Source: Trypanosoma brucei
Taxonomy: Eukaryota
DNA length: 64,000 bases
Reading direction: 5' to 3'
NCBI GenBank assembly: GCA_000002445.1
Contig: CM000207.1
Span: forward strand, 1,568,001 to 1,632,000
Shown here piece after piece: positions 8,138-64,000 of the stretch. Every line of letters starts with the position of its first letter. Position 1 is the stretch's first letter. The translations under genes and the position numbers were made by a program. The notes below the pieces were generated by a model that saw only the letters and a program-made list of their open reading frames with translations, ran no database searches and had not been told where the DNA came from.

Positions 8138-9229
8138 CTACTGCTCCGCGGCAACACCTCTGAAGGGTATCTCAAACCAAATACACCAGTCCTCGATGTC
8201 CTGCACAATTGGATGTCTTTCACCATAAAATTTCTGTGATGTTGTGCGAGCTGAAAGAAGGTGTTCTGCTGCCTCATCGTTTTTATTCACCCACAAAAGA
8301 TACAAACCCAGTAAAAATTGCGCTCGTGCTGTCGTTGGATGTGAGATGGTGAGGCGCTCTTTCTGAATGCTAAAAATACCAAACAACATTTTGGATACAT
8401 CGGCGAGATTTTCCTTTCCAAATGCCCGTGCTGAGGCGTGGCCGACCTCATGTGTGACTTCATCATCGTCATAACGCTTAACGAGCTTAGCTGCCATCGT
8501 TTCATCAACAATGTCTTTGAGTACTCGACGTAAGTGTTTCAGCCAGATGTTTTTCACCGTATCGTAAAGTGCCATCGCCGCCTCCATGCACGCCTTGGTG
8601 GCAAAAACATTGGCCAAGTCAAAATAAGCAAAGGTTGTCAGTACATGCTCTGGGCCATTCATTACACTTAGATAATACGTGGCGCAGGTTAGGTGCTTAA
8701 CAGAAACATCTAGTTTATTGTCCGCGGCATACAGTAGTCCAAATGTCTGGTGGAGTTCCGCTTTTATGGTCGCATCTGCTTCATCTGGATTCTGAAGGAT
8801 AATAAAGTGCGCAAGGGATAATATTTCCTCCGCATTCCCGTAACGTTTCAAAAACTGGTTCGTTCGAGCAAGATGGAAGTGCGCTGGCACAAGCTTTACG
8901 CTTCCCTTTCCATAGAACCTCTCCTTCAAGCGAAGCGTTTTCACGCCTGCCTCCGCTGCTGCCTCTCCGTTTCCCTCCACAAGCAACCGTCTGCTTTCAT
9001 CCTGTGCGCGCGTCAGCAGCTGCTCAATGACCGCACCCACCTTTTCGCGATGCGCCGACCTGGCTGCAAGAGCGTTGATGCCACTAGATGGCGCATCCAT
9101 TAACTGCATCAACTCGTCAAACTTTGGCTCCAGTGTTGACCAGCCAACATTGGTGATGTCGAGTGGGTCCACCAACTCCTTGGCGGCTGCACGCGTGGAG
9201 GGGAGCACTTTTAAATTGGCGCCTTGCAT
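8138..9229 (-). CDS. Conserved hypothetical protein, TPR-like helical repeat character
   Basis: 363 aa ORF on the transcription-unit strand. ATG at 9227-9229. Helical repeat-like segments (FLLGLYLLWVNKNDEAAEHL, YGERHPIV). No family assignable by eye. Confidence 0.5.
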   Translation of the reverse strand: MQGANLKVLPSTRAAAKELVDPLDITNVGWSTLEPKFDELMQLMDAPSSGINALAARSAHREKVGAVIEQLLTRAQDESRRLLVEGNGEAAAEAGVKTLRLKERFYGKGSVKLVPAHFHLARTNQFLKRYGNAEEILSLAHFIILQNPDEADATIKAELHQTFGLLYAADNKLDVSVKHLTCATYYLSVMNGPEHVLTTFAYFDLANVFATKACMEAAMALYDTVKNIWLKHLRRVLKDIVDETMAAKLVKRYDDDEVTHEVGHASARAFGKENLADVSKMLFGIFSIQKERLTISHPTTARAQFLLGLYLLWVNKNDEAAEHLLSARTTSQKFYGERHPIVQDIEDWCIWFEIPFRGVAAEQ

Positions 9230-9981: not shown

Positions 9982-11469
9982 TTAATCGCTGTCATCGAAC
10001 CTTGTGGTATTACGGTTATTGTCGAAAGAAGGAGATGGCCGACCAAAGCCACGGCCTCCACGGTCCCCAAAGCCACGGCCTCCACGATCCCCAAAGCCGC
10101 GGCCTCCACGGTCCCCAAAGCCACGGCCTCCACGATCCCCAAAACCGCGGCCTCCACGGTCCCCAAAGCCACGGCCTCCACGATCCCCAAAGCCACGGCC
10201 TCCACGGTCCCCAAAGCCACGGCCTCCACGATCCCCAAAACCGCGGCCTCCACGATCCCCAAAACCACGGCCTCCACGATCCCCAAAACCACGGCCTCCA
10301 CGATCACCAAAGCCGCGGCCTCCACGATCACCGAAATCACGGCCTCGGCCGCGACCCCGTCCGTTTCCATTTTCATTTCGAATAAACTTTCGAACAGGCT
10401 CGTCTTCCCCCTCCTCGTCATCACCAATGGATCGCTTACCATTGGCATTCTGCTGCACCTCTTCTCCATCACTGTCAGACTCTGGCATAGGTTTCTTGGG
10501 AGCAACCTTTGGTGATGCTTTCACTGGTTTACGCACGGGCTCATCATCATCACTGTCAGACTCTGGCATAGGTTTCTTGGGAGCAACCTTTGGTGACCTC
10601 TTAGCTGGTTTACGCACGGGCTCATCATCATCACTGTCAGACTCTGGCATAGGTTTCTTGGGAGCAACCTTTGGTGACCTCTTAGCTGGTTTACGCACGG
10701 GCTCATCATCATCACTGTCAGACTCTGGCATAGGTTTCTTGGGAGCAACCTTTGGTGATGCCTTCACTGGTTTACGCACGGGTTCATCATCATCACTGTC
10801 AGACTCTGGCATAGGTTTCTTGGGAGCAACCTTTGGTGATGCTTTCACTGGTTTACGCACGGGCTCATCATCATCACTGTCAGACTCTGGCATAGGTTTC
10901 TTGGGAGCAACCTTTGGTGATGCCTTCACTGGTTTACGCACGGGTTCATCATCATCACTGTCAGACTCTGGCATAGGTTTCTTGGGAGCAACCTTTGGTG
11001 ACCTCTTAGCTGGTTTACGCACGGGCTCATCATCATCACTGTCAGACTCTGGCATAGGTTTCTTGGGAGCAACCTTTGGTGATGCCTTCACTGGTTTACG
11101 CACGGGCTCATCATCATCACTGTCAGACTCTGGCATAGGTTTCTTGGGAGCAACCTTTGGTGATGCTTTCACTGGTTTACGCACGGGCTCATCATCATCA
11201 CTGTCAGACTCTGGCATAGGTTTCTTGGGAGCAAACTTTGGTGACCTCTTAGCTGGTTTACGCACGGGCTCATCATCATCACTGTCAGTTTTATCTCGAA
11301 TATTCTTCGGTGCAGCAATGAGAGCCGAGAACTTCAGACCCCGGCCCGCCTTTTCCACTGAGGGATTACTTGCTTTCAAAGCATCCGCAGCTTCGATGTA
11401 GTTCGACTCTCTCAGATATCGGTATACCTGGGCATCAAGCTCATCTTTTGGAAGACGTAACACAGACAT
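9982..11469 (-). CDS. Nopp140-like nucleolar phosphoprotein (LisH motif + 20-aa acidic/basic repeats + C-terminal RGG/GAR domain), resembling trypanosome NoLP
   Basis: 495 aa. N-terminal LisH-like motif (LDAQVYRYLRESNYIEAADALKA). About 12 tandem 20-aa units (SDSDDDEPVRKP[V/A]K[A/R]SPKVAPKKPMPE). About 13 units of GDRGGRGF. ATG at 11467-11469. Confidence 0.65.
   Translation of the reverse strand: MSVLRLPKDELDAQVYRYLRESNYIEAADALKASNPSVEKAGRGLKFSALIAAPKNIRDKTDSDDDEPVRKPAKRSPKFAPKKPMPESDSDDDEPVRKPVKASPKVAPKKPMPESDSDDDEPVRKPVKASPKVAPKKPMPESDSDDDEPVRKPAKRSPKVAPKKPMPESDSDDDEPVRKPVKASPKVAPKKPMPESDSDDDEPVRKPVKASPKVAPKKPMPESDSDDDEPVRKPVKASPKVAPKKPMPESDSDDDEPVRKPAKRSPKVAPKKPMPESDSDDDEPVRKPAKRSPKVAPKKPMPESDSDDDEPVRKPVKASPKVAPKKPMPESDSDGEEVQQNANGKRSIGDDEEGEDEPVRKFIRNENGNGRGRGRGRDFGDRGGRGFGDRGGRGFGDRGGRGFGDRGGRGFGDRGGRGFGDRGGRGFGDRGGRGFGDRGGRGFGDRGGRGFGDRGGRGFGDRGGRGFGDRGGRGFGRPSPSFDNNRNTTRFDDSD
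10037..10340. repeat. 24-bp perfect tandem repeat (~12-13 copies), encodes the RGG/GAR domain
   Basis: Unit ccaaagccacggcctccacgrtcc repeats head-to-tail. It lies inside the C-terminal part of the minus-strand CDS. Confidence 0.85.
10440..11290. repeat. 60-bp tandem repeat (~13 copies, two alternating variants), encodes the acidic/basic 20-aa repeats
   Basis: Unit catcatcatcactgtcagactctggcataggtttcttgggagcaacctttggtga[tgc(t/c)ttcac|cctcttagc]tggtttacgcacgggct. Near-perfect copies inside the CDS. Confidence 0.85.
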
Positions 11470-11820
11470 TTAAAGAGATGTTCTTTAACTTTCCTAGGGC
11501 GACCAATAGAAAGCAAAAAGGGAAAAGGGAAAGATCAAAAGTGAGAAGTCGGATATGTGGACCGTTATCTTCCGTAGGTCACTGTCTCATTCATTGAAGA
11601 AGGATTCAAAAGAATGACCGCTCGTGGTTATGTATAACTTTTTTTTCACAGACAGATTTGCACGGAGACAAAACGCATCTCAATAAGGATTCAGCATGAT
11701 GAATACAACTTCGTGTGGGTTGGTTCCTGATTTTGCACAACAGAGGTCAACGATCAAGAGGGGGTCCTGCAGGAAGCGTCGGCTGTTGGCGTACTTCTGT
11801 TCCTGGTACACCTTCATCTG

Positions 11821-12120
11821 TTATTTCCGTCCCCTTTGAACCCTCTTATCGTATCGTATATGTCGTAGCTTCTTTCCGTGTCTACTAGTCGATGCCCCCG
11901 GTTTGACCGGGTGAGGTGTTCGCGTACGATTAAAAATCGTTTCCTCCGGGCGTCCAATGTAGTACGGTTTCGTCGTTGTCCCACACTCTTCACAGGACTC
12001 CCCTTGGTACACGCGCTGTGTAGTCCTCGTAACCCACACATGAGAGGAAGTCCACGTGTTGCTGCACACCCGGCAGCGAAAGATGCCCGGACGTCTAGCC
12101 AGTGGTGGGGGAGTAAACAT
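11821..12120 (-). CDS. Candidate small zinc-ribbon protein (C-x2-C ... C-x2-C; weak resemblance to DNL-type/Zim17-Hep1 zinc fingers)
   Basis: ORF in the spacer between the Nopp140-like gene and POLE, same strand as the transcription unit. FRCRVCSNTWTSSHVWVTRTTQRVYQGESCEECG. ATG at 12118-12120 (99 aa); an earlier in-frame ATG at 12163-12165 would add a presequence-like MLTITALLLLRPRH. The ORF-track start (12219) is GTG. Confidence 0.3.
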   Translation of the reverse strand: MFTPPPLARRPGIFRCRVCSNTWTSSHVWVTRTTQRVYQGESCEECGTTTKPYYIGRPEETIFNRTRTPHPVKPGASTSRHGKKLRHIRYDKRVQRGRK

Positions 12121-12561
12121 AATATGCCGTGGCCGCAGAAGAAGAAGAGCGGTGATAGTGAGCATAAAGAGGGTTGCTATAGATGGGAAAGTTTCTCCTT
12201 CACGCCAACATATAGACACACCCCACGTGTTTTTGACTGCTGCCGTGAGGCAGTGTCCGGAAGTCGCTACCTTGCGCGTGCACGGGAGAAAGAAGATCAG
12301 AAGAAGGGAAAGATATAGTGCTAGTAGCTACTATTATGGGACGGCAAAAACACGACCACCTTTTTACAAGCATTCGCGTGTGTTTCCTCTCCATAAGCGT
12401 TGCTCCGGTTGACAAGAAAAATTTGCGGCTCTCTGGCACTTCCTCCTGCAAGTATCATCTTGTATTCAAATATTTTTCTCTATAGAAATACCCGTTCTAT
12501 ATTTCGATTACGATCTCTATGTGTTACCGCCAGTTTGTGAAAGCTCCCTCTATCATGAAGG

Positions 12562-54321: not shown

Positions 54322-57300
54322 ACACCCAAACACTTACTCAGAAGTCAAACAGACAAAATTAACTGATGTCAGCATCAAATAAATTCAGCTGAAACACGGA
54401 TTTGACAGACTCATCATTGACACAAAACAAGGTAAGAGCAACACCACCAAACAGTTCAGAGCAGGAATAAGAAGGAGGGCGGCATGTACATATGTGTGTG
54501 GGGTAATGTTGGTGTAATGGGGAAAAGGTGAGAAAGTTACCGTACGCCTCGGACGCAGGACGCACGCGGCTGGAATGTTGTGCGGCGCCCCAGAAACTAT
54601 CGTAACACTCGTGCTCAATCCATGTTCGGGTGTGTGTCATAAGACCGTCGTAAGTGGTTTATCGTCATGGGCAAAGTACAAGGTGTATCCGCAGTGACCA
54701 AAGAGACAATGCAGAATCTGGCAAAGAGAAAGGGCGAAAGCCAAGCAATAAGGGTGGTTTCAAATGTAAAACAAGGAAAAAGGGAGGGGAGGGGGGTGAC
54801 AGTAACCACACACATGGTATGATAACGTGCCACGACGAAACCAAACACCATCAGCCGGGGAAAGAAGAATATTCTTTAAATGGGTTATTGTCATTCAAAT
54901 ACACTCAGAGACTCCAGTCCATTGATGTCATCAAGTAGCGCGTTTACGACAGGTTAGGTGTACCGCAAAGCAACTCTCGGAGCGCACCAAGATGGCCTAC
55001 GGCATGCAATCACAAAACGGCCGCTCCATGGCTAAAGCCCCTTTTTCATTTTTGTTGTCCATAAAAACACTGAAGGGAGAAAACAGAGGAAGGAGAAGGT
55101 AACAATATCAAACAAGAGAAGAGTGTGCACTAACCAATAACCTCCGTTATAATTCTCGGACCACGTGAGTGTGCAAACAAGGACACAGAAATGTTAGCCC
55201 AAGACACAACTCCAATGTGGGCCTTCCCCTACGGTTACTGCCCCAACACATAATTGTAATTATAATAATAACCATAATCATAATTATACACCTGACGTCA
55301 AGTGAAAAAAACTCGGCGCGTCAGAAACAATATTAGCGTCACGGGTTCTGTTCAGATGTTGCTGTTAATTTGTTATATTAGGTATTCATCACACGCACCT
55401 ACTCGCCGAACTGCTAACCCCACACGTCAGCTCGGAGCGAAAGATAGAGTTCACAGTTGCATCGACATAGTGTGTTTCCGTTCCGCCTACGCGGTATCGG
55501 AAGCTCTTTCATCAGTGGCGGGGAACGACGGATGGGGGATAAACACTTAACAGAGGGGAAAATGTGCATGAAATAGGTAATACAATAAGAGAAGGGGGAA
55601 GTAAACAGGGAATCACGGAAGTAAGGTTCAGTGCAGGTCTGTGTTATGGTGTCCTCACAGGTTCTCGGTGCAATTTGAACATATTGTACATCGTCACCTA
55701 CTACATTCCCTCTCGACTACCCCGCCACTCACAACATTATACTGCCGCCCACATTAGCCATTCCAAACTCACTGCGGTAATGTATCCTCGTGTGTGCTTG
55801 CGTGTATATGTGTATATATGTGTATGTGTATGGAGTCGCGCCCAAGTGCCCGAGGTTGAGTACCTGAAGGACACGATAGCCATCAGACCCGAAAGGTGAT
55901 TTGTGTTGTATAGATCCCTCATGAATATGACGTCGGAACATGTTTGGACGCTCAACTAGTTTCCATCATCGGCCACACACATACACAAACATACAAGCAC
56001 ACACACACACACACACACTCACATATATATATATATATATACATACACGACAAACCTCCGCACACCCAAACACTTACTCAGAAGTCAAACAGACAAAATT
56101 AACTGATGTCAGCATCAAATAAATTCAGCTGAAACACGGATTTGACAGACTCATCATTGACACAAAACAAGGTAAGAGCAACACCACCAAACAGTTCAGA
56201 GCAGGAATAAGAAGGAGGGCGGCATGTACATATGTGTGTGGGGTAATGTTGGTGTAATGGGGAAAAGGTGAGAAAGTTACCGTACGCCTCGGACGCAGGA
56301 CGCACGCGGCTGGAATGTTGTGCGGCGCCCCAGAAACTATCGTAACACTCGTGCTCAATCCATGTTCGGGTGTGTGTCATAAGACCGTCGTAAGTGGTTT
56401 ATCGTCATGGGCAAAGTACAAGGTGTATCCGCAGTGACCAAAGAGACAATGCAGAATCTGGCAAAGAGAAAGGGCGAAAGCCAAGCAATAAGGGTGGTTT
56501 CAAATGTAAAACAAGGAAAAAGGGAGGGGAGGGGGGTGACAGTAACCACACACATGGTATGATAACGTGCCACGACGAAACCAAACACCATCAGCCGGGG
56601 AAAGAAGAATATTCTTTAAATGGGTTATTGTCATTCAAATACACTCAGAGACTCCAGTCCATTGATGTCATCAAGTAGCGCGTTTACGACAGGTTAGGTG
56701 TACCGCAAAGCAACTCTCGGAGCGCACCAAGATGGCCTACGGCATGCAATCACAAAACGGCCGCTCCATGGCTAAAGCCCCTTTTTCATTTTTGTTGTCC
56801 ATAAAAACACTGAAGGGAGAAAACAGAGGAAGGAGAAGGTAACAATATCAAACAAGAGAAGAGTGTGCACTAACCAATAACCTCCGTTATAATTCTCGGA
56901 CCACGTGAGTGTGCAAACAAGGACACAGAAATGTTAGCCCAAGACACAACTCCAATGTGGGCCTTCCCCTACGGTTACTGCCCCAACACATAATTGTAAT
57001 TATAATAATAACCATAATCATAATTATACACCTGACGTCAAGTGAAAAAAACTCGGCGCGTCAGAAACAATATTAGCGTCACGGGTTCTGTTCAGATGTT
57101 GCTGTTAATTTGTTATATTAGGTATTCATCACACGCACCTACTCGCCGAACTGCTAACCCCACACGTCAGCTCGGAGCGAAAGATAGAGTTCACAGTTGC
57201 ATCGACATAGTGTGTTTCCGTTCCGCCTACGCGGTATCGGAAGCTCTTTCATCAGTGGCGGGGAACGACGGATGGGGGATAAACACTTAACAGAGGGGAA

Positions 57301-60300
57301 AATGTGCATGGAATAGGTAATACAATAAGAGAAGGGGGAAGTAAACAGGGAATCACGGAAGTAAGGTTCAGTGCAGGTCTGTGTTATGGTGTCCTCACAG
57401 GTTCTCGGTGCAATTTGAACATATTGTACATCGTCACCCACTACATTCCCTCTCGACTACCCCGCCACTCACAACATTATACTGCCGCCCACATTAGCCA
57501 TTCCAAACTCACTGCGGTAATGTATCCTCGTGTGTGCTTGCGTGTATATGTGTATATATGTGTATATATGTGTATGTGTATGGAGTCGCGCCCAAGTGCC
57601 CGAGGTTGAGTACCTGAAGGACACGATAGCCATCAGACCCGAAAGGTGATTTGTGTTGTATAGATCCCTCATGAATATGACGTCGGAACATGTTTGGACG
57701 CTCAACTAGTTTCCATCATCGGCCACACACATACACAAACATACAAGCACACACACATACACACACTCACATATATATATATATATATATATACATACAC
57801 GACAAACCTCCGCACACCCAAACACTTACTCAGAAGTCAAACAGACAAAATTAACTGATGTCAGCATCAAATAAATTCAGCTGAAACACGGATTTGACAG
57901 ACTCATCATTGACACAAAACAAGGTAAGAGCAACACCACCAAACAGTTCAGAGCAGGAATAAGAAGGAGGGCGGCATGTACATATGTGTGTGGGGTAATC
58001 TTGGTGTAATGGGGAAAAGGTGAGAAAGTTACCGTACGCCTCGGACGCAGGACGCACGCGGCTGGAATGTTGTGCGGCGCCCCAGAAACTATCGTAACAC
58101 TCGTGCTCAATCCATGTTCGGGTGTGTGTCATAAGACCGTCGTAAGTGGTTTATCGTCATGGGCAAAGTACAAGGTGTATCCGCAGTGACCAAAGAGACA
58201 ATGCAGAATCTGGCAAAGAGAAAGGGCGAAAGCCAAGCAATAAGGGTGGTTTCAAATGTAAAACAAGGAAAAAGGGAGGGGAGGGGGGTGACAGTAACCA
58301 CACACATGGTATGATAACGTGCCACGACGAAACCAAACACCATCAGCCGGGGAAAGAAGAATATTCTTTAAATGGGTTATTGTCATTCAAATACACTCAG
58401 AGACTCCAGTCCATTGATGTCATCAAGTAGCGCGTTTACGACAGGTTAGGTGTACCGCAAAGCAACTCTCGGAGCGCACCAAGATGGCCTACGGCATGCA
58501 ATCACAAAACGGCCGCTCCATGGCTAAAGCCCCTTTTTCATTTTTGTTGTCCATAAAAACACTGAAGGGAGAAAACAGAGGAAGGAGAAGGTAACAATAT
58601 CAAACAAGAGAAGAGTGTGCACTAACCAATAACCTCCGTTATAATTCTCGGACCACGTGAGTGTGCAAACAAGGACACAGAAATGTTAGCCCAAGACACA
58701 ACTCCAATGTGGGCCTTCCCCTACGGTTACTGCCCCAACACATAATTGTAATTATAATAATAACCATAATCATAATTATACACCTGACGTCAAGTGAAAA
58801 AAACTCGGCGCGTCAGAAACAATATTAGCGTCACGGGTTCTGTTCAGATGTTGCTGTTAATTTGTTATATTAGGTATTCATCACACGCACCTACTCGCCG
58901 AACTGCTAACCCCACACGTCAGCTCGGAGCGAAAGATAGAGTTCACAGTTGCATCGACATAGTGTGTTTCCGTTCCGCCTACGCGGTATCGGAAGCTCTT
59001 TCATCAGTGGCGGGGAACGACGGATGGGGGATAAACACTTAACAGAGGGGAAAATGTGCATGGAATAGGTAATACAATAAGAAAAGGGGGAAGTAAACAG
59101 GGAATCACGGAAGTAAGGTTCAGTGCAGGTCTGTGTTATGGTGTCCTCACAGGTTCTCGGTGCAATTTGAACATATTGTACATCGTCACCCACTACATTC
59201 CCTCTCGACTACCCCGCCACTCACAACATTATACTGCCGCCCACATTAGCCATTCCAAACTCACTGCGGTAATGTATCCTCGTGTGTGCTTGCGTGTATA
59301 TGTGTATATATGTGTATGTGTATGGAGTCGCGCCCAAGTGCCCGAGGTTGAGTACCTGAAGGACACGATAGCCATCAGACCCGAAAGGTGATTTGTGTTG
59401 TATAGATCCCTCATGAATATGACGTCGGAACATGTTTGGACGCTCAACTAGTTTCCATCATCGGCCACACACATACACAAACATACAAGCACACACACAC
59501 ACACACACACTCACATATATATATATATATATACATATATATACACGACAAACCTCCGCACACCCAAACACTTACTCAGAAGTCAAACAGACAAAATTAA
59601 CTGATGTCAGCATCAAATAAATTCAGCTGAAACACGGATTTGACAGACTCATCATTGACACAAAACAAGGTAAGAGCAACACCACCAAACAGTTCAGAGC
59701 AGGAATAAGAAGGAGGGCGGCATGTACATATGTGTGTGGGGTAATCTTGGTGTAATGGGGAAAAGGTGAGAAAGTTACCGTACGCCTCGGACGCAGGACG
59801 CACGCGGCTGGAATGTTGTGCGGCGCCCCAGAAACTATCGTAACACTCGTGCTCAATCCATGTTCGGGTGTGTGTCATAAGACCGTCGTAAGTGGTTTAT
59901 CGTCATGGGCAAAGTACAAGGTGTATCCGCAGTGACCAAAGAGACAATGCAGAATCTGGCAAAGAGAAAGGGCGAAAGCCAAGCAATAAGGGTGGTTTCA
60001 AATGTAAAACAAGGAAAAAGGGAGGGGAGGGGGGTGACAGTAACCACACACATGGTATGATAACGTGCCACGACGAAACCAAACACCATCAGCCGGGGAA
60101 AGAAGAATATTCTTTAAATGGGTTATTGTCATTCAAATACACTCAGAGACTCCAGTCCATTGATGTCATCAAGTAGCGCGTTTACGACAGGTTAGGTGTA
60201 CCGCAAAGCAACTCTCGGAGCGCACCAAGATGGCCTACGGCATGCAATCACAAAACGGCCGCTCCATGGCTAAAGCCCCTTTTTCATTTTTGTTGTCCAT

Positions 60301-63300
60301 AAAAACACTGAAGGGAGAAAACAGAGGAAGGAGAAGGTAACAATATCAAACAAGAGAAGAGTGTGCACTAACCAATAACCTCCGTTATAATTCTCGGACC
60401 ACGTGAGTGTGCAAACAAGGACACAGAAATGTTAGCCCAAGACACAACTCCGATGTGGGCCTTCCCCTACGGTTACTGCCCCAACACATAATTGTAATTA
60501 TAATAATAACCATAATCATAATTATACACCTGACGTCAAGTGAAAAAAACTCGGCGCGTCAGAAACAATATTAGCGTCACGGGTTCTGTTCAGATGTTGC
60601 TGTTAATTTGTTATATTAGGTATTCATCACACGCACCTACTCGCCGAACTGCTAACCCCACACGTCAGCTCGGAGCGAAAGATAGAGTTCACAGTTGCAT
60701 CGACATAGTGTGTTTCCGTTCCGCCTACGCGGTATCGGAAGCTCTTTCATCAGTGGCGGGGAACGACGGATGGGGGATAAACACTTAACAGAGGGGAAAA
60801 TGTGCATGGAATAGGTAATACAATAAGAGAAGGGGGAAGTAAACAGGGAATCACGGAAGTAAGGTTCAGTGCAGGTCTGTGTTATGGTGTCCTCACAGGT
60901 TCTCGGTGCAATTTGAACATATTGTACATCGTCACCCACTACATTCCCTCTCGACTACCCCGCCACTCACAACATTATACTGCCGCCCACATTAGCCATT
61001 CCAAACTCACTGCGGTAATGTATCCTCGTGTGTGCTTGCGTGTATATGTGTATATATGTGTATGTGTATGGAGTCGCGCCCAAGTGCCCGAGGTTGAGTA
61101 CCTGAAGGACACGATAGCCATCAGACCCGAAAGGTGATTTGTGTTGTATAGATCCCTCATGAATATGACGTCGGAACATGTTTGGACGCTCAACTAGTTT
61201 CCATCATCGGCCACACACATACACAAACATACAAGCACACACACACACACACACACTCACATATATATATATATATATACATACACGACAAACCTCCGCA
61301 CACCCAAACACTTACTCAGAAGTCAAACAGACAAAATTAACTGATGTCAGCATCAAATAAATTCAGCTGAAACACGGATTTGACAGACTCATCATTGACA
61401 CAAAACAAGGTAAGAGCAACACCACCAAACAGTTCAGAGCAGGAATAAGAAGGAGGGCGGCATGTACATATGTGTGTGGGGTAATCTTGGTGTAATGGGG
61501 AAAAGGTGAGAAAGTTACCGTACGCCTCGGACGCAGGACGCACGCGGCTGGAATGTTGTGCGGCGCCCCAGAAACTATCGTAACACTCGTGCTCAATCCA
61601 TGTTCGGGTGTGTGTCATAAGACCGTCGTAAGTGGTTTATCGTCATGGGCAAAGTACAAGGTGTATCCGCAGTGACCAAAGAGACAATGCAGAATCTGGC
61701 AAAGAGAAAGGGCGAAAGCCAAGCAATAAGGGTGGTTTCAAATGTAAAACAAGGAAAAAGGGAGGGGAGGGGGGTGACAGTAACCACACACATGGTATGA
61801 TAACGTGCCACGACGAAACCAAACACCATCAGCCGGGGAAAGAAGAATATTCTTTAAATGGGTTATTGTCATTCAAATACACTCAGAGACTCCAGTCCAT
61901 TGATGTCATCAAGTAGCGCGTTTACGACAGGTTAGGTGTACCGCAAAGCAACTCTCGGAGCGCACCAAGATGGCCTACGGCATGCAATCACAAAACGGCC
62001 GCTCCATGGCTAAAGCCCCTTTTTCATTTTTGTTGTCCATAAAAACACTGAAGGGAGAAAACAGAGGAAGGAGAAGGTAACAATATCAAACAAGAGAAGA
62101 GTGTGCACTAACCAATAACCTCCGTTATAATTCTCGGACCACGTGAGTGTGCAAACAAGGACACAGAAATGTTAGCCCAAGACACAACTCCAATGTGGGC
62201 CTTCCCCTACGGTTACTGCCCCAACACATAATTGTAATTATAATAATAACCATAATCATAATTATACACCTGACGTCAAGTGAAAAAAACTCGGCGCGTC
62301 AGAAACAATATTAGCGTCACGGGTTCTGTTCAGATGTTGCTGTTAATTTGTTATATTAGGTATTCATCACACGCACCTACTCGCCGAACTGCTAACCCCA
62401 CACGTCAGCTCGGAGCGAAAGATAGAGTTCACAGTTGCATCGACATAGTGTGTTTCCGTTCCGCCTACGCGGTATCGGAAGCTCTTTCATCAGTGGCGGG
62501 GAACGATGGATGGGGGATAAACACTTAACAGAGGGGAAAATGTGCATGGAATAGGTAATACAATAAGAGAAGGGGGAAGTAAACAGGGAATCACGGAAGT
62601 AAGGTTCAGTGCAGGTCTGTGTTATGGTGTCCTCACAGGTTCTCGGTGCAATTTGAACATATTGTACATCGTCACCCACTACATTCCCTCTCGACTACCC
62701 CGCCACTCACAACATTATACTGCCGCCCACATTAGCCATTCCAAACTCACTGCGGTAATGTATCCTCGTGTGTGCTTGCGTGTATATGTGTATATATGTG
62801 TATGTGTATGGAGTCGCGCCCAAGTGCCCGAGGTTGAGTACCTGAAGGACACGATAGCCATCAGACCCGAAAGGTGATTTGTGTTGTATAGATCCCTCAT
62901 GAATATGACGTCGGAACATGTTTGGACGCTCAACTAGTTTCCATCATCGGCCACACACATACACAAACATACAAGCACACACACACACACACACTCACAT
63001 ATATATATATATATATATACATACACGACAAACCTCCGCACACCCAAACACTTACTCAGAAGTCAAACAGACAAAATTAACTGATGTCAGCATCAAATAA
63101 ATTCAGCTGAAACACGGATTTGACAGACTCATCATTGACACAAAACAAGGTAAGAGCAACACCACCAAACAGTTCAGAGCAGGAATAAGAAGGAGGGCGG
63201 CATGTACATATGTGTGTGGGGTAATGTTGGTGTAATGGGGAAAAGGTGAGAAAGTTACCGTACGCCTCGGACGCAGGACGCACGCGGCTGGAATGTTGTG

Positions 63301-64000
63301 CGGCGCCCCAGAAACTATCGTAACACTCGTGCTCAATCCATGTTCGGGTGTGTGTCATAAGACCGTCGTAAGTGGTTTATCGTCATGGGCAAAGTACAAG
63401 GTGTATCCGCAGTGACCAAAGAGACAATGCAGAATCTGGCAAAGAGAAAGGGCGAAAGCCAAGCAATAAGGGTGGTTTCAAATGTAAAACAAGGAAAAAG
63501 GGAGGGGAGGGGGGTGACAGTAACCACACACATGGTATGATAACGTGCCACGACGAAACCAAACACCATCAGCCGGGGAAAGAAGAATATTCTTTAAATG
63601 GGTTATTGTCATTCAAATACACTCAGAGACTCCAGTCCATTGATGTCATCAAGTAGCGCGTTTACGACAGGTTAGGTGTACCGCAAAGCAACTCTCGGAG
63701 CGCACCAAGATGGCCTACGGCATGCAATCACAAAACGGCCGCTCCATGGCTAAAGCCCCTTTTTCATTTTTGTTGTCCATAAAAACACTGAAGGGAGAAA
63801 ACAGAGGAAGGAGAAGGTAACAATATCAAACAAGAGAAGAGTGTGCACAAACCAATAACCTCCGTTATAATTCTCGGACCACGTGAGTGTGCAAACAAGG
63901 ACACAGAAATGTTAGCCCAAGACACAACTCCAATGTGGGCCTTCCCCTACGGTTACTGCCCCAACACATAATTGTAATTATAATAATAACCATAATCATA
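54322..64000. repeat. Head-to-tail tandem array of a ~1.74 kb unit (5 full copies + 1 partial, truncated by the window edge)
   Basis: Unit boundaries 54322, 56062, 57814, 59560, 61300, 63040, giving unit lengths 1740/1752/1746/1740/1740. About 99.5% identity. Length differences map to internal (TGTATATA)n and (CA)n(TA)n microsatellites. The identical short ORFs in the six-frame track recur at these offsets. Confidence 0.95.
55999..56040. repeat. Compound (CA)n(TA)n microsatellite inside each 1.74 kb unit (recurs in every copy, length-variable)
   Basis: acacacacacacacacacactcacatatatatatatatatat. Copies near 57746-57797, 59480-59536, 61236-61279 and 62976-63019 differ in repeat number. Confidence 0.9.

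What the first reader, a model, noticed from the sequence alone, without database searches (positions are those of the whole stretch)
9982..11469. Nopp140-like nucleolar protein built from two perfect DNA-level tandem arrays, where the usual SRP40-type C-terminus is replaced by an RGG/GAR domain
**Seen in sequence.**
- The protein has a LisH-like N-terminus.
- About 12 units follow, each a phospho-acidic Ser/Asp cluster plus a basic K/P stretch of 20 aa. They are encoded by near-perfect 60-bp DNA repeats in two alternating variants, VKAS and AKRS.
- Then about 13 GDRGGRGF units follow, encoded by a 24-bp repeat.

**Established knowledge.** Nopp140 proteins have LisH plus alternating acidic/basic repeats. 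Trypanosomes have a Nopp140-like paralogue, NoLP, that ends in a GAR domain.

**Inference.** The nucleotide-level perfection implies recent expansion or contraction, so repeat number is probably strain-variable and prone to collapse in assemblies. Out-of-frame translations of the same repeats create large spurious ORFs on both strands (e.g. plus 10004-11401).
Basis: partly seen in the sequence, partly recalled or inferred. Interest (0 to 1): 0.5.

Follow-up and report, generated by a model that had tools for sequence, protein, structure and literature searches.

The report
Trypanosome Nopp140-like nucleolar repeat protein
This is a real Trypanosoma brucei chromosome 9 gene for a Nopp140-like nucleolar protein, almost certainly the already published TbNoLP, built from two tandem repeat arrays whose copy numbers differ between genome assemblies.

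Summary
The minus-strand ORF 9982-11469 (495 aa) is a genuine gene, and the window is T. brucei TREU927 chromosome 9.

**Architecture**
- An N-terminal LisH motif scores above Pfam's cut-off.
- Ten 27-aa acidic-serine/basic-lysine-proline units follow, encoded by 81-bp repeats.
- Then come an acidic linker and twelve identical GDRGGRGF units, encoded by 24-bp repeats.
- It ends in a short conserved acidic tail. No SRP40_C domain is detectable.

- The units are 81 bp/27 aa x10, not 60 bp/20 aa x12.
- The VKAS and AKRS variants do not alternate.
- The arrays are 91-93% identical, not perfect. Every difference in the glycine-arginine-rich (GAR) array is synonymous.

**Interpretation holds**
- The repeat units match those of SRP40_C-bearing kinetoplastid Nopp140 far better than composition-matched shuffles.
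- Syntenic orthologues with the same architecture exist in T. b. gambiense, T. theileri, T. vivax and Leishmania donovani.
- Copy number differs between assemblies (10/12, 12/13, 3/about 12), and several assemblies break or gap inside the arrays.
- Literature describes a T. brucei Nopp140-like protein. It also describes a nucleolar, RGG-rich, PRMT1-associated protein, Tb927.9.10400, which is very probably this gene.

Verdict: already known, ordinary and correctly interpreted.

The parts
9982..11469 (-). Complete coding sequence, 495 aa plus stop; the Nopp140-like protein (NoLP-type)
   Evidence: - The ORF is listed.
- It lies on the same strand as every other long ORF in the window, as expected for a polycistronic unit.
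- Syntenic orthologues sit between DNA polymerase epsilon/Zn-ribbon and TAX-1 in T. b. gambiense, T. b. equiperdum, T. theileri, T. vivax and L. donovani.
11374..11445 (-). LisH motif (residues 9-32), a presumed dimerisation module
   Evidence: - Pfam PF08513 scores 26.0 bits, E 8.5e-6, on the isolated N-terminus (cut-off 21.6); orthologues score 23, 20.7 and 12.3 bits.
- The AlphaFold model is helical with pLDDT 84-87 over residues 11-40.
- Its top Foldseek PDB matches are nearly all LisH proteins: TBL1, LIS1, SMU1, WDR47, Twa1 and Topless. None is individually significant (E >= 0.6).
10480..11289 (-). Ten 27-aa/81-bp acidic-serine + basic Lys/Pro units ([ST]DSDDDEPVRKP[VKAS/AKRS]PK[V/F]APKKPMPE), residues 61-330; TRF array 10467-11288
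   Evidence: - TRF gives period 81, 10.1 copies, 93% matches and score 1435.
- Pairwise unit identity is 75-81 of 81 nt.
- The protein has 24 S/T-x-x-D/E (CK2-type) sites.
10369..10479 (-). Degenerate 11th acidic cluster and unique acidic linker (SDSDGEEVQQNANGKRSIGDDEEGEDEPVRKFIRNEN), residues 331-367
   Evidence: Read from the translations. The segment pI of 4.56 was computed on residues 339-367 only. It has one substitution (Q/P) against gambiense.
10039..10368 (-). GAR/RGG domain, residues 368-477: an RG lead-in (GNGRGRGRGRDF), then 12 identical GDRGGRGF units (10045-10332)
   Evidence: - TRF gives period 24, 12.7 copies and 91% matches.
- The 12 units are identical in amino acids but use 8 DNA variants, differing only at synonymous third positions.
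- This is the only ORF in the window with more than 2 RGG motifs.
9985..10038 (-). Conserved acidic C-terminal tail PSPSFDNNRNTTRFDDSD
   Evidence: The tail is conserved in T. theileri (…NNRTSTKFEDSD), T. vivax (…PSRTTTKFDDSD) and a metagenomic relative (…KTSTKFDDE). It has no significant match to SRP40_C.
11494..11548 (-). Polypyrimidine tract ending in AG, 24 nt upstream of the ATG; a candidate trans-splice acceptor (inferred only)
   Evidence: The tract is 55 nt and 82% pyrimidine, followed by AG. This is inferred from general knowledge of trypanosome trans-splicing, with no RNA data examined.

Best explanation
The ORF encodes the trypanosomatid Nopp140-like nucleolar protein, the NoLP paralogue of Nopp140. 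It is very probably gene Tb927.9.10400 of T. brucei TREU927.

Proposed mechanism (inferred, not shown here):
- The N-terminal LisH helices dimerise the protein.
- The ten acidic-serine clusters are CK2-type phosphorylation sites. They alternate with Lys/Pro-rich basic stretches to form a long disordered multivalent scaffold, like the Nopp140 central domain. That domain chaperones snoRNPs and associates with RNA polymerase I in the nucleolus.
- The canonical SRP40_C domain is replaced by a glycine-arginine-rich domain of 12 GDRGGRGF units. This domain binds RNA, is a likely substrate or partner of the arginine methyltransferase PRMT1, and helps partition the protein into the fibrillarin-containing nucleolar subcompartment.

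Both arrays are kept homogeneous within a species by unequal recombination or slippage, so copy number varies between strains. Selection preserves the peptide sequence.
For: **Shown here**
- Origin: neighbouring proteins match TREU927 entries exactly. A TrypTag primer for Tb927.9.10370 matches the adjacent TAX-1 start codon exactly. A TB9Cs2H1 snoRNA cluster marks chromosome 9.
- Architecture: LisH + 10 x 27-aa units + GAR + tail.
- The reading frame is under purifying selection, since all variation in the GAR array is synonymous.
- The repeat unit is homologous to units of SRP40_C-bearing kinetoplastid Nopp140, with z of 9-11 against shuffles.
- The N-terminus aligns with canonical Nopp140 N-termini in LisH register.
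- The same architecture occurs in the same syntenic slot in four other trypanosomatid species or subspecies (T. b. gambiense, T. theileri, T. vivax, L. donovani). The T. b. equiperdum copy, a fifth genome, reads out of frame within the GAR array.
- Copy number varies between assemblies.

**From papers**
- T. brucei has Nopp140 plus a Nopp140-like protein, both phosphorylated and co-precipitating with Pol I (PMC8311968).
- Tb927.9.10400 is a nucleolar protein with numerous RGG repeats. It is in the top 5% of TbPRMT1 interactors, is mRNA-bound, and shows more RNA association when PRMT1 is lost (PMC6299225).
- TrypTag places Tb927.9.10400 in the 'fibrillarin-like' nuclear class (PMC9981465).
- Drosophila makes an analogous Nopp140-RGG isoform and shows repeat-length polymorphism in Nopp140 (bioRxiv 10.1101/513978).
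Against: - The published TbNoLP sequence could not be compared. Kelly et al. 2006 is not held, and T. brucei-group NoLP proteins cannot be retrieved from the protein collection.
- The link to Tb927.9.10400 is an inference. It rests on adjacency to Tb927.9.10370 and on this being the only RGG-rich ORF in 64 kb.
- The N-terminal similarity to canonical Nopp140 is weak (hhalign probability 36%). LisH is a short, widespread motif.
- A canonical T. brucei Nopp140 was not retrieved with the tools.
- Dimerisation, phosphorylation, methylation and snoRNP chaperoning are not shown by anything done here.
- Differences in copy number could partly be assembly artefacts rather than true alleles.
Confidence: 0.85

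Rival explanations
1. It is the canonical Nopp140/SRP40 orthologue of T. brucei, not a separate paralogue.
For: It has LisH plus alternating acidic/basic repeats, and its units are homologous to those of canonical kinetoplastid Nopp140.
Against: - No SRP40_C match appears at E <= 10 on the whole protein or on the C-terminal region. The same scan gives 52-54 bits on canonical kinetoplastid proteins.
- hhalign against an SRP40_C alignment gives probability 0.7%.
- The N-termini of the two groups are clearly distinct families.
- Literature reports two separate genes in T. brucei.
Confidence: 0.04
2. It is an unrelated RGG/GAR nucleolar RNA-binding protein, of the NOPP44/46 or nucleolin kind. On this view it resembles Nopp140 only through low-complexity composition.
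For: - The full-length search is dominated by RGG-containing helicases and RRM proteins.
- T. brucei has other acidic + RGG nucleolar phosphoproteins, such as NOPP44/46, named.
Against: - Unit order, not just composition, matches Nopp140 units, with 0 of 5000 shuffles reaching the score.
- The conserved motif S-x-S-D-D-D-E-P-V-R-K-P…S-P-K is shared with SRP40_C proteins.
- LisH is present, and no RRM or other domain is found.
Confidence: 0.07
3. It is a non-coding minisatellite pair, and the long ORF is an accident of repetition.
For: Repeats of 81 and 24 bp are multiples of 3, so they open long ORFs in several frames on both strands.
Against: - Only the minus-strand frame starts with ATG plus a LisH domain.
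- Variation in the GAR array is exclusively synonymous in that frame.
- The same protein architecture is conserved in synteny from Trypanosoma to Leishmania, although the DNA units differ.
- Proteomic detection of the probable gene product is reported.
Confidence: 0.01

Closest known systems
TbNoLP, the Nopp140-like protein of Trypanosoma brucei (Kelly et al. 2006, Eukaryot Cell 5:876; cited in PMC8311968)
   Same: It is from the same organism. From my own recollection of that paper, not verifiable here, TbNoLP has the same architecture: a Nopp140-type N-terminus and acidic/basic repeats with a C-terminal GAR domain. The review says it is phosphorylated and co-precipitates with Pol I.
   Different: No difference is known, and this is most probably the same gene. 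The sequence and gene ID from that paper could not be checked.
Canonical Nopp140 / NOLC1 / yeast Srp40 (Pfam SRP40_C, PF05022)
   Same: Both have an N-terminal LisH-type motif, a long disordered centre of alternating CK2-type acidic serine clusters and basic Lys/Pro stretches, and a nucleolar setting. The repeat unit is homologous to those of kinetoplastid SRP40_C proteins.
   Different: It lacks the SRP40_C domain and has a GAR domain plus a short acidic tail instead. Its N-terminal domain belongs to a distinct subfamily.
Drosophila melanogaster Nopp140-RGG isoform (Waggener and DiMario 2002, as described in bioRxiv 10.1101/513978)
   Same: It has the same domain logic: LisH, acidic/basic repeats and a C-terminal RGG domain in place of the conserved Nopp140 C-terminus. 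Repeat-length polymorphism is documented in the central domain.
   Different: In the fly the RGG form arises by alternative splicing of one gene. In trypanosomatids it is a separate, syntenically conserved gene. No sequence homology between the RGG tails was tested.
Other GAR-domain nucleolar proteins (fibrillarin/NOP1, GAR1, nucleolin, T. brucei NOPP44/46)
   Same: Both have RGG/GAR repeats. The probable gene product shows PRMT1 association and a fibrillarin-like nucleolar pattern.
   Different: No methyltransferase, RRM or GAR1 core domain is present. Only LisH is detected.

Membership tests
Nopp140/SRP40 (NOLC1) family | N-terminal LisH motif | tested here: met
   PF08513 scores 26.0 bits against a cut-off of 21.6 on the isolated N-terminus, and 21.6 on the whole protein. 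The fold model's top matches are LisH proteins, at non-significant E-values.
Nopp140/SRP40 (NOLC1) family | Central domain of alternating acidic serine clusters (CK2 sites) and basic Lys/Pro-rich stretches | tested here: met
   There are ten 27-aa units and 24 S/T-x-x-D/E sites. Unit order is homologous to canonical kinetoplastid Nopp140 units, with z of 9-11 and 0 of 5000 shuffles reaching the score.
Nopp140/SRP40 (NOLC1) family | C-terminal SRP40_C domain (PF05022) | tested here: not met
   No hit appears at E <= 10 on the whole protein or on the C-terminal regions of three orthologues. Canonical kinetoplastid proteins score 52-54 bits in the same scan. hhalign probability is 0.7%.
Nopp140/SRP40 (NOLC1) family | Nucleolar phosphoprotein associated with Pol I/snoRNPs | not testable with these tools
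   Literature only: PMC8311968, and TrypTag and the PRMT1 study for Tb927.9.10400. The gene-ID link is inferred.
Trypanosomatid NoLP (Nopp140-like protein) | LisH + acidic/basic repeats + C-terminal GAR domain instead of SRP40_C | tested here: met
Trypanosomatid NoLP (Nopp140-like protein) | Conserved gene across trypanosomatids, distinct from the canonical Nopp140 gene | tested here: met
   - Syntenic orthologues (PolE - Zn-ribbon - NoLP - TAX-1) with GAR tails occur in T. b. gambiense, T. theileri, T. vivax and L. donovani.
- Separate SRP40_C proteins exist in other kinetoplastids.
- The canonical T. brucei gene itself was not retrieved.
Trypanosomatid NoLP (Nopp140-like protein) | Sequence identity with the published TbNoLP | not testable with these tools
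   Kelly et al. 2006 is not held. T. brucei-group NoLP proteins are absent from exact look-up, even where the gene is called.
GAR-domain RNA-binding proteins (fibrillarin, GAR1, nucleolin, NOPP44/46) | RGG/GAR repeats together with the family's core domain (methyltransferase, GAR1 core, RRM) | tested here: not met
   There are 12 RGG motifs, but Pfam finds no domain other than LisH.

The most novel reading that the evidence does not exclude
The NoLP lineage may have arisen from a duplicated Nopp140 gene in which the SRP40_C domain was overwritten in place by tandem amplification of an RGG-containing segment. On this view only the extreme C-terminal motif ([ST]-x-[KR]-F-[DE]-D-S-[DE]) survives; compare canonical kinetoplastid …YQFPDSDDE. 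The large allelic range of repeat number (3 to 12 acidic/basic units within the T. brucei group) would then tune the valency of a nucleolar scaffold. The family also seems older than the trypanosomatids: a metagenomic relative has two LisH-like modules, a GAR domain and the same tail.
Probability: 0.15. Interest if true: 0.35.

Novelty: already known. Interest (0 to 1): 0.15.

Why it matters
- **Biology:** little is new. A Nopp140-like protein with a GAR domain has been described in T. brucei since 2006, and an RGG-ended Nopp140 isoform is known in Drosophila.
[quoted passage not shown] One ascribes topoisomerase-like similarity to it. Linking the locus to NoLP would correct that.
- **Assembly:** the gene is truncated, frame-shifted or gapped in several public trypanosomatid assemblies.
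- **Marker use:** its repeat number differs between T. brucei-group genomes, so it could serve as a minor length marker.
- **Gene prediction:** it is a known trap for gene callers, because large out-of-frame ORFs open on both strands.

Tried and rejected
- **Full-length protein search.** It was swamped by RGG helicases and RRM proteins, so it was uninformative. A query with collapsed repeats worked.
- **SRP40_C remnant in the C-terminal region.** hmmscan at E <= 10 found nothing. hhalign aligned only 7 terminal residues (TTRFDDS with AYQFPDS) at probability 0.7%. I rejected this as evidence and keep it only as a speculative lead.
- **Retrieving canonical T. brucei Nopp140.** A kinetoplastid SRP40_C query returned only 4 proteins, none from T. 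brucei (Leptomonas, Strigomonas and Lotmaria, plus one unnamed).
- **Reading Kelly et al. 2006.** The paper is not held.
- **Paper searches.** 'NoLP', 'TbNoLP' and 'Tb927.9.10380' gave nothing.
- **Proving the gene ID from TrypTag primers.** There were no hits, because the stored primer table is truncated. The same approach did confirm the neighbour Tb927.9.10370.
- **Exact look-up of the 495-aa protein and the gambiense 559-aa protein.** Both are 'not in the collection', even though the gambiense gene is called there. No biological conclusion can be drawn from this absence.
- **Profile search with the N-terminal domain against 1.84 billion proteins.** It gave only 13 hits. These were orthologues, a few short LisH-like N-terminal fragments and repeat-protein noise. 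None carried SRP40_C.
- **PDB sequence search with the N-terminal profile.** Only sub-significant LisH hits appeared (TBL1, LIS1).
Full report
**What is there.** The minus strand of 9982-11469 holds an ATG-to-stop ORF of 495 aa. Tandem Repeats Finder reports two arrays inside it. One has an 81-bp period with 10.1 copies at 10467-11288 (93% matches, score 1435). The other has a 24-bp period with 12.7 copies at 10043-10346 (91% matches, score 489). An independent repeat finder confirms both. They are the only tandem arrays scoring 100 or more in the 64-kb window.

**Protein layout.**
- Residues 1-60 form a unique N-terminus.
- Residues 61-330 are ten 27-aa units of the form [ST]DSDDDEPVRKP(VKAS|AKRS)PK(V|F)APKKPMPE.
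- A degenerate eleventh acidic cluster and an acidic linker follow.
- Next is an RG lead-in and twelve identical GDRGGRGF units (residues 380-475).
- The protein ends in the acidic tail PSPSFDNNRNTTRFDDSD.

- The acidic/basic unit is 81 bp/27 aa, not 60 bp/20 aa.
- There are 10 units, not about 12, and 12 GAR units, not about 13.
- The two variants occur in the order A V V A V V V A A V rather than alternating.
- The arrays are not perfect at DNA level. The 81-bp units share 75-81 of 81 nt.
- The 12 GAR units use eight DNA variants that differ only at four third-codon, synonymous positions. The chance that four variable sites all fall on third positions is about 0.007. This shows purifying selection on this reading frame.
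- The large out-of-frame ORFs on both strands are real, for example plus 10004-11401 at 465 aa.

**Origin of the window.**
- The neighbouring ORFs are exact matches to T. brucei brucei TREU927 proteins: TAX-1 (EAN76995), an amino-acid transporter (EAN76992), a Zn-ribbon protein (EAN76997) and a PGAP1-like protein (EAN76999).
- The PGAP1-like match is specific to TREU927.
- TAX-1 is Tb927.9.10370 (PMC10629824).
- The TrypTag TREU927 tagging primer for that gene matches window 9202-9229 exactly.
- Six tandem copies of the chromosome-9 snoRNA TB9Cs2H1 lie at 55-64 kb.
- All long ORFs are on the minus strand, as in a trypanosome polycistron.

**Is it Nopp140-like beyond low complexity?**
- Pfam finds LisH at residues 9-32. 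It scores 21.6 bits on the whole protein and 26.0 bits on the isolated N-terminus, against a cut-off of 21.6.
- An AlphaFold model of the N-terminus is helical, with pLDDT 84-87 over residues 11-40.
- Its best PDB matches are almost all LisH domains (TBL1, LIS1, SMU1, WDR47, Twa1, Topless), though none is individually significant.
- The 27-aa unit aligns with the repeat units of kinetoplastid proteins that carry SRP40_C (P0005, P0033, P0036). Scores are 9-11 SD above composition-matched shuffles, with 0 of 5000 reaching the observed score. The resemblance therefore lies in residue order (SxSDDDEPVRKP…SPK.A.KK), not only composition.
- The N-terminus aligns with canonical kinetoplastid Nopp140 N-termini in LisH register (hhalign P 3.8e-4, probability 36%). 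This is weak but consistent.
- The SRP40_C domain is absent. No hit appears at E <= 10, while canonical proteins score 52-54 bits in the same scan. Profile-profile probability is 0.7%.
- The protein therefore works like, and is related to, Nopp140. It fails one defining feature of the canonical family and fits the separate 'Nopp140-like' (NoLP) type.

**Conservation.** The gene sits in the conserved order DNA polymerase epsilon - Zn-ribbon - NoLP - TAX-1 - Snf7.

| Genome | What the locus shows |
|---|---|
| T. b. gambiense DAL972 | 559 aa |
| T. b. equiperdum IVM-t1 | same slot; details below |
| T. theileri | LisH, 26-aa units, GDRGGRGF array, tail …TSTKFEDSD |
| T. vivax | more than 20 units with frameshifts, GAR, tail …TTTKFDDSD |
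| Leishmania donovani BPK282A1 | LisH, about 30-aa units, GGDRGGFRGG repeats |

Units are more alike within a species than between species, which indicates concerted evolution. An exhaustive profile search with the N-terminal domain found only 13 proteins. One is a metagenomic protein with two LisH-like modules, a GAR domain and the tail …KTSTKFDDE. The type may therefore predate the trypanosomatids.

**Copy-number variation and assembly fragility.**
- The window has 10 acidic/basic units and 12 GAR units.
- DAL972 has 12 and 13, in a different variant order and with two 28-aa units.
- IVM-t1 has 3 acidic/basic units and about 12 GAR units with frameshifts.
- The T. equiperdum OVI contig begins at window position 10515, about 35 bp downstream of the last full 81-bp unit, and keeps only 4.7 GAR copies.
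- Three short-read contigs end 20-30 bp into the GAR array.
- T. theileri has an N-gap in the acidic/basic array, and L. donovani has N-gaps in both arrays.
However, real alleles cannot be separated from assembly collapse without reads.

**Literature.**
[quoted passage not shown] 2006). The primary paper is not held.
- Tb927.9.10400 lies three ID steps from TAX-1. [quoted passage not shown] It is mRNA-bound, in the top 5% of TbPRMT1 interactors, and more RNA-associated when PRMT1 is deleted (PMC6299225).
- TrypTag lists Tb927.9.10400 among 25 'fibrillarin-like' nuclear proteins (PMC9981465).
- This ORF is the only one in the 64-kb window with more than two RGG motifs, so I equate it with Tb927.9.10400 at roughly 85-90% confidence. 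I could not prove the link.
- Drosophila provides the closest analogue outside kinetoplastids. Its Nopp140-RGG isoform is made by alternative splicing, and a 96-bp repeat-length polymorphism is documented in its central domain (bioRxiv 10.1101/513978).

**Mechanism.** The domain architecture, frame selection, homology of units, synteny and copy-number differences are shown here. The following steps are inferred:
- LisH-mediated dimerisation.
- CK2 phosphorylation of the 24 S/T-x-x-D/E sites.
- A multivalent disordered scaffold or chaperone role for snoRNPs and Pol I.
- RNA binding and PRMT1 interaction through the GAR domain.
- Nucleolar sub-compartment targeting.
- A candidate trans-splice acceptor: a 55-nt tract, 82% pyrimidine, ending in AG 24 nt upstream of the ATG.

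**Verdict.** It is already described in the literature, so interest is low. Its practical value lies in annotation and assembly quality control.

Noticed in passing
window 55154-63941 (minus strand): Six tandem copies, at about 1.74-kb spacing, of the H/ACA snoRNA TB9Cs2H1 (RF01554, 84-87 bits). The surrounding 54-64 kb stretch has no long ORFs and a strong AT skew. This is a reiterated snoRNA gene cluster of T. brucei chromosome 9. TRF missed it because the period exceeds 500 bp.
   Followed up: partly
window 9982-11469; L009:1568-3247: The 495-aa protein and the T. b. gambiense 559-aa orthologue are both 'not in the collection' by exact look-up. Homology searches also return no T. brucei-group member. 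Yet the gambiense gene is called in the same resource, and all neighbouring proteins are found. The cause is unknown, and no biological meaning is attached to it.
   Followed up: partly
L011:5001-6715 (L. donovani BPK282A1 chr 35) and L007:6001-7424 (T. theileri): Reference annotations split or truncate the orthologue into a 91-aa or 118-aa 'partial' gene plus a separate downstream piece. The cause is runs of N inside the repeat arrays.
   Followed up: yes
L010:2760-3791 (JGI metagenome 3300045138): A 343-aa protein has two consecutive LisH-like modules, acidic stretches, a GAR domain and a …KTSTKFDDE tail. It may be a NoLP-type protein from an unidentified organism outside the trypanosomatids.
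   Followed up: partly
literature on Tb927.9.10400: [quoted passage not shown] No such domain was found here. The similarity is likely a low-complexity artefact.
   Followed up: partly
window 11821-12165 (minus strand): A 114-aa 3CxxC-type zinc-ribbon protein (EAN76997) lies immediately upstream of the NoLP gene. It keeps this position in T. b. gambiense, T. b. equiperdum and L. donovani.
   Followed up: no
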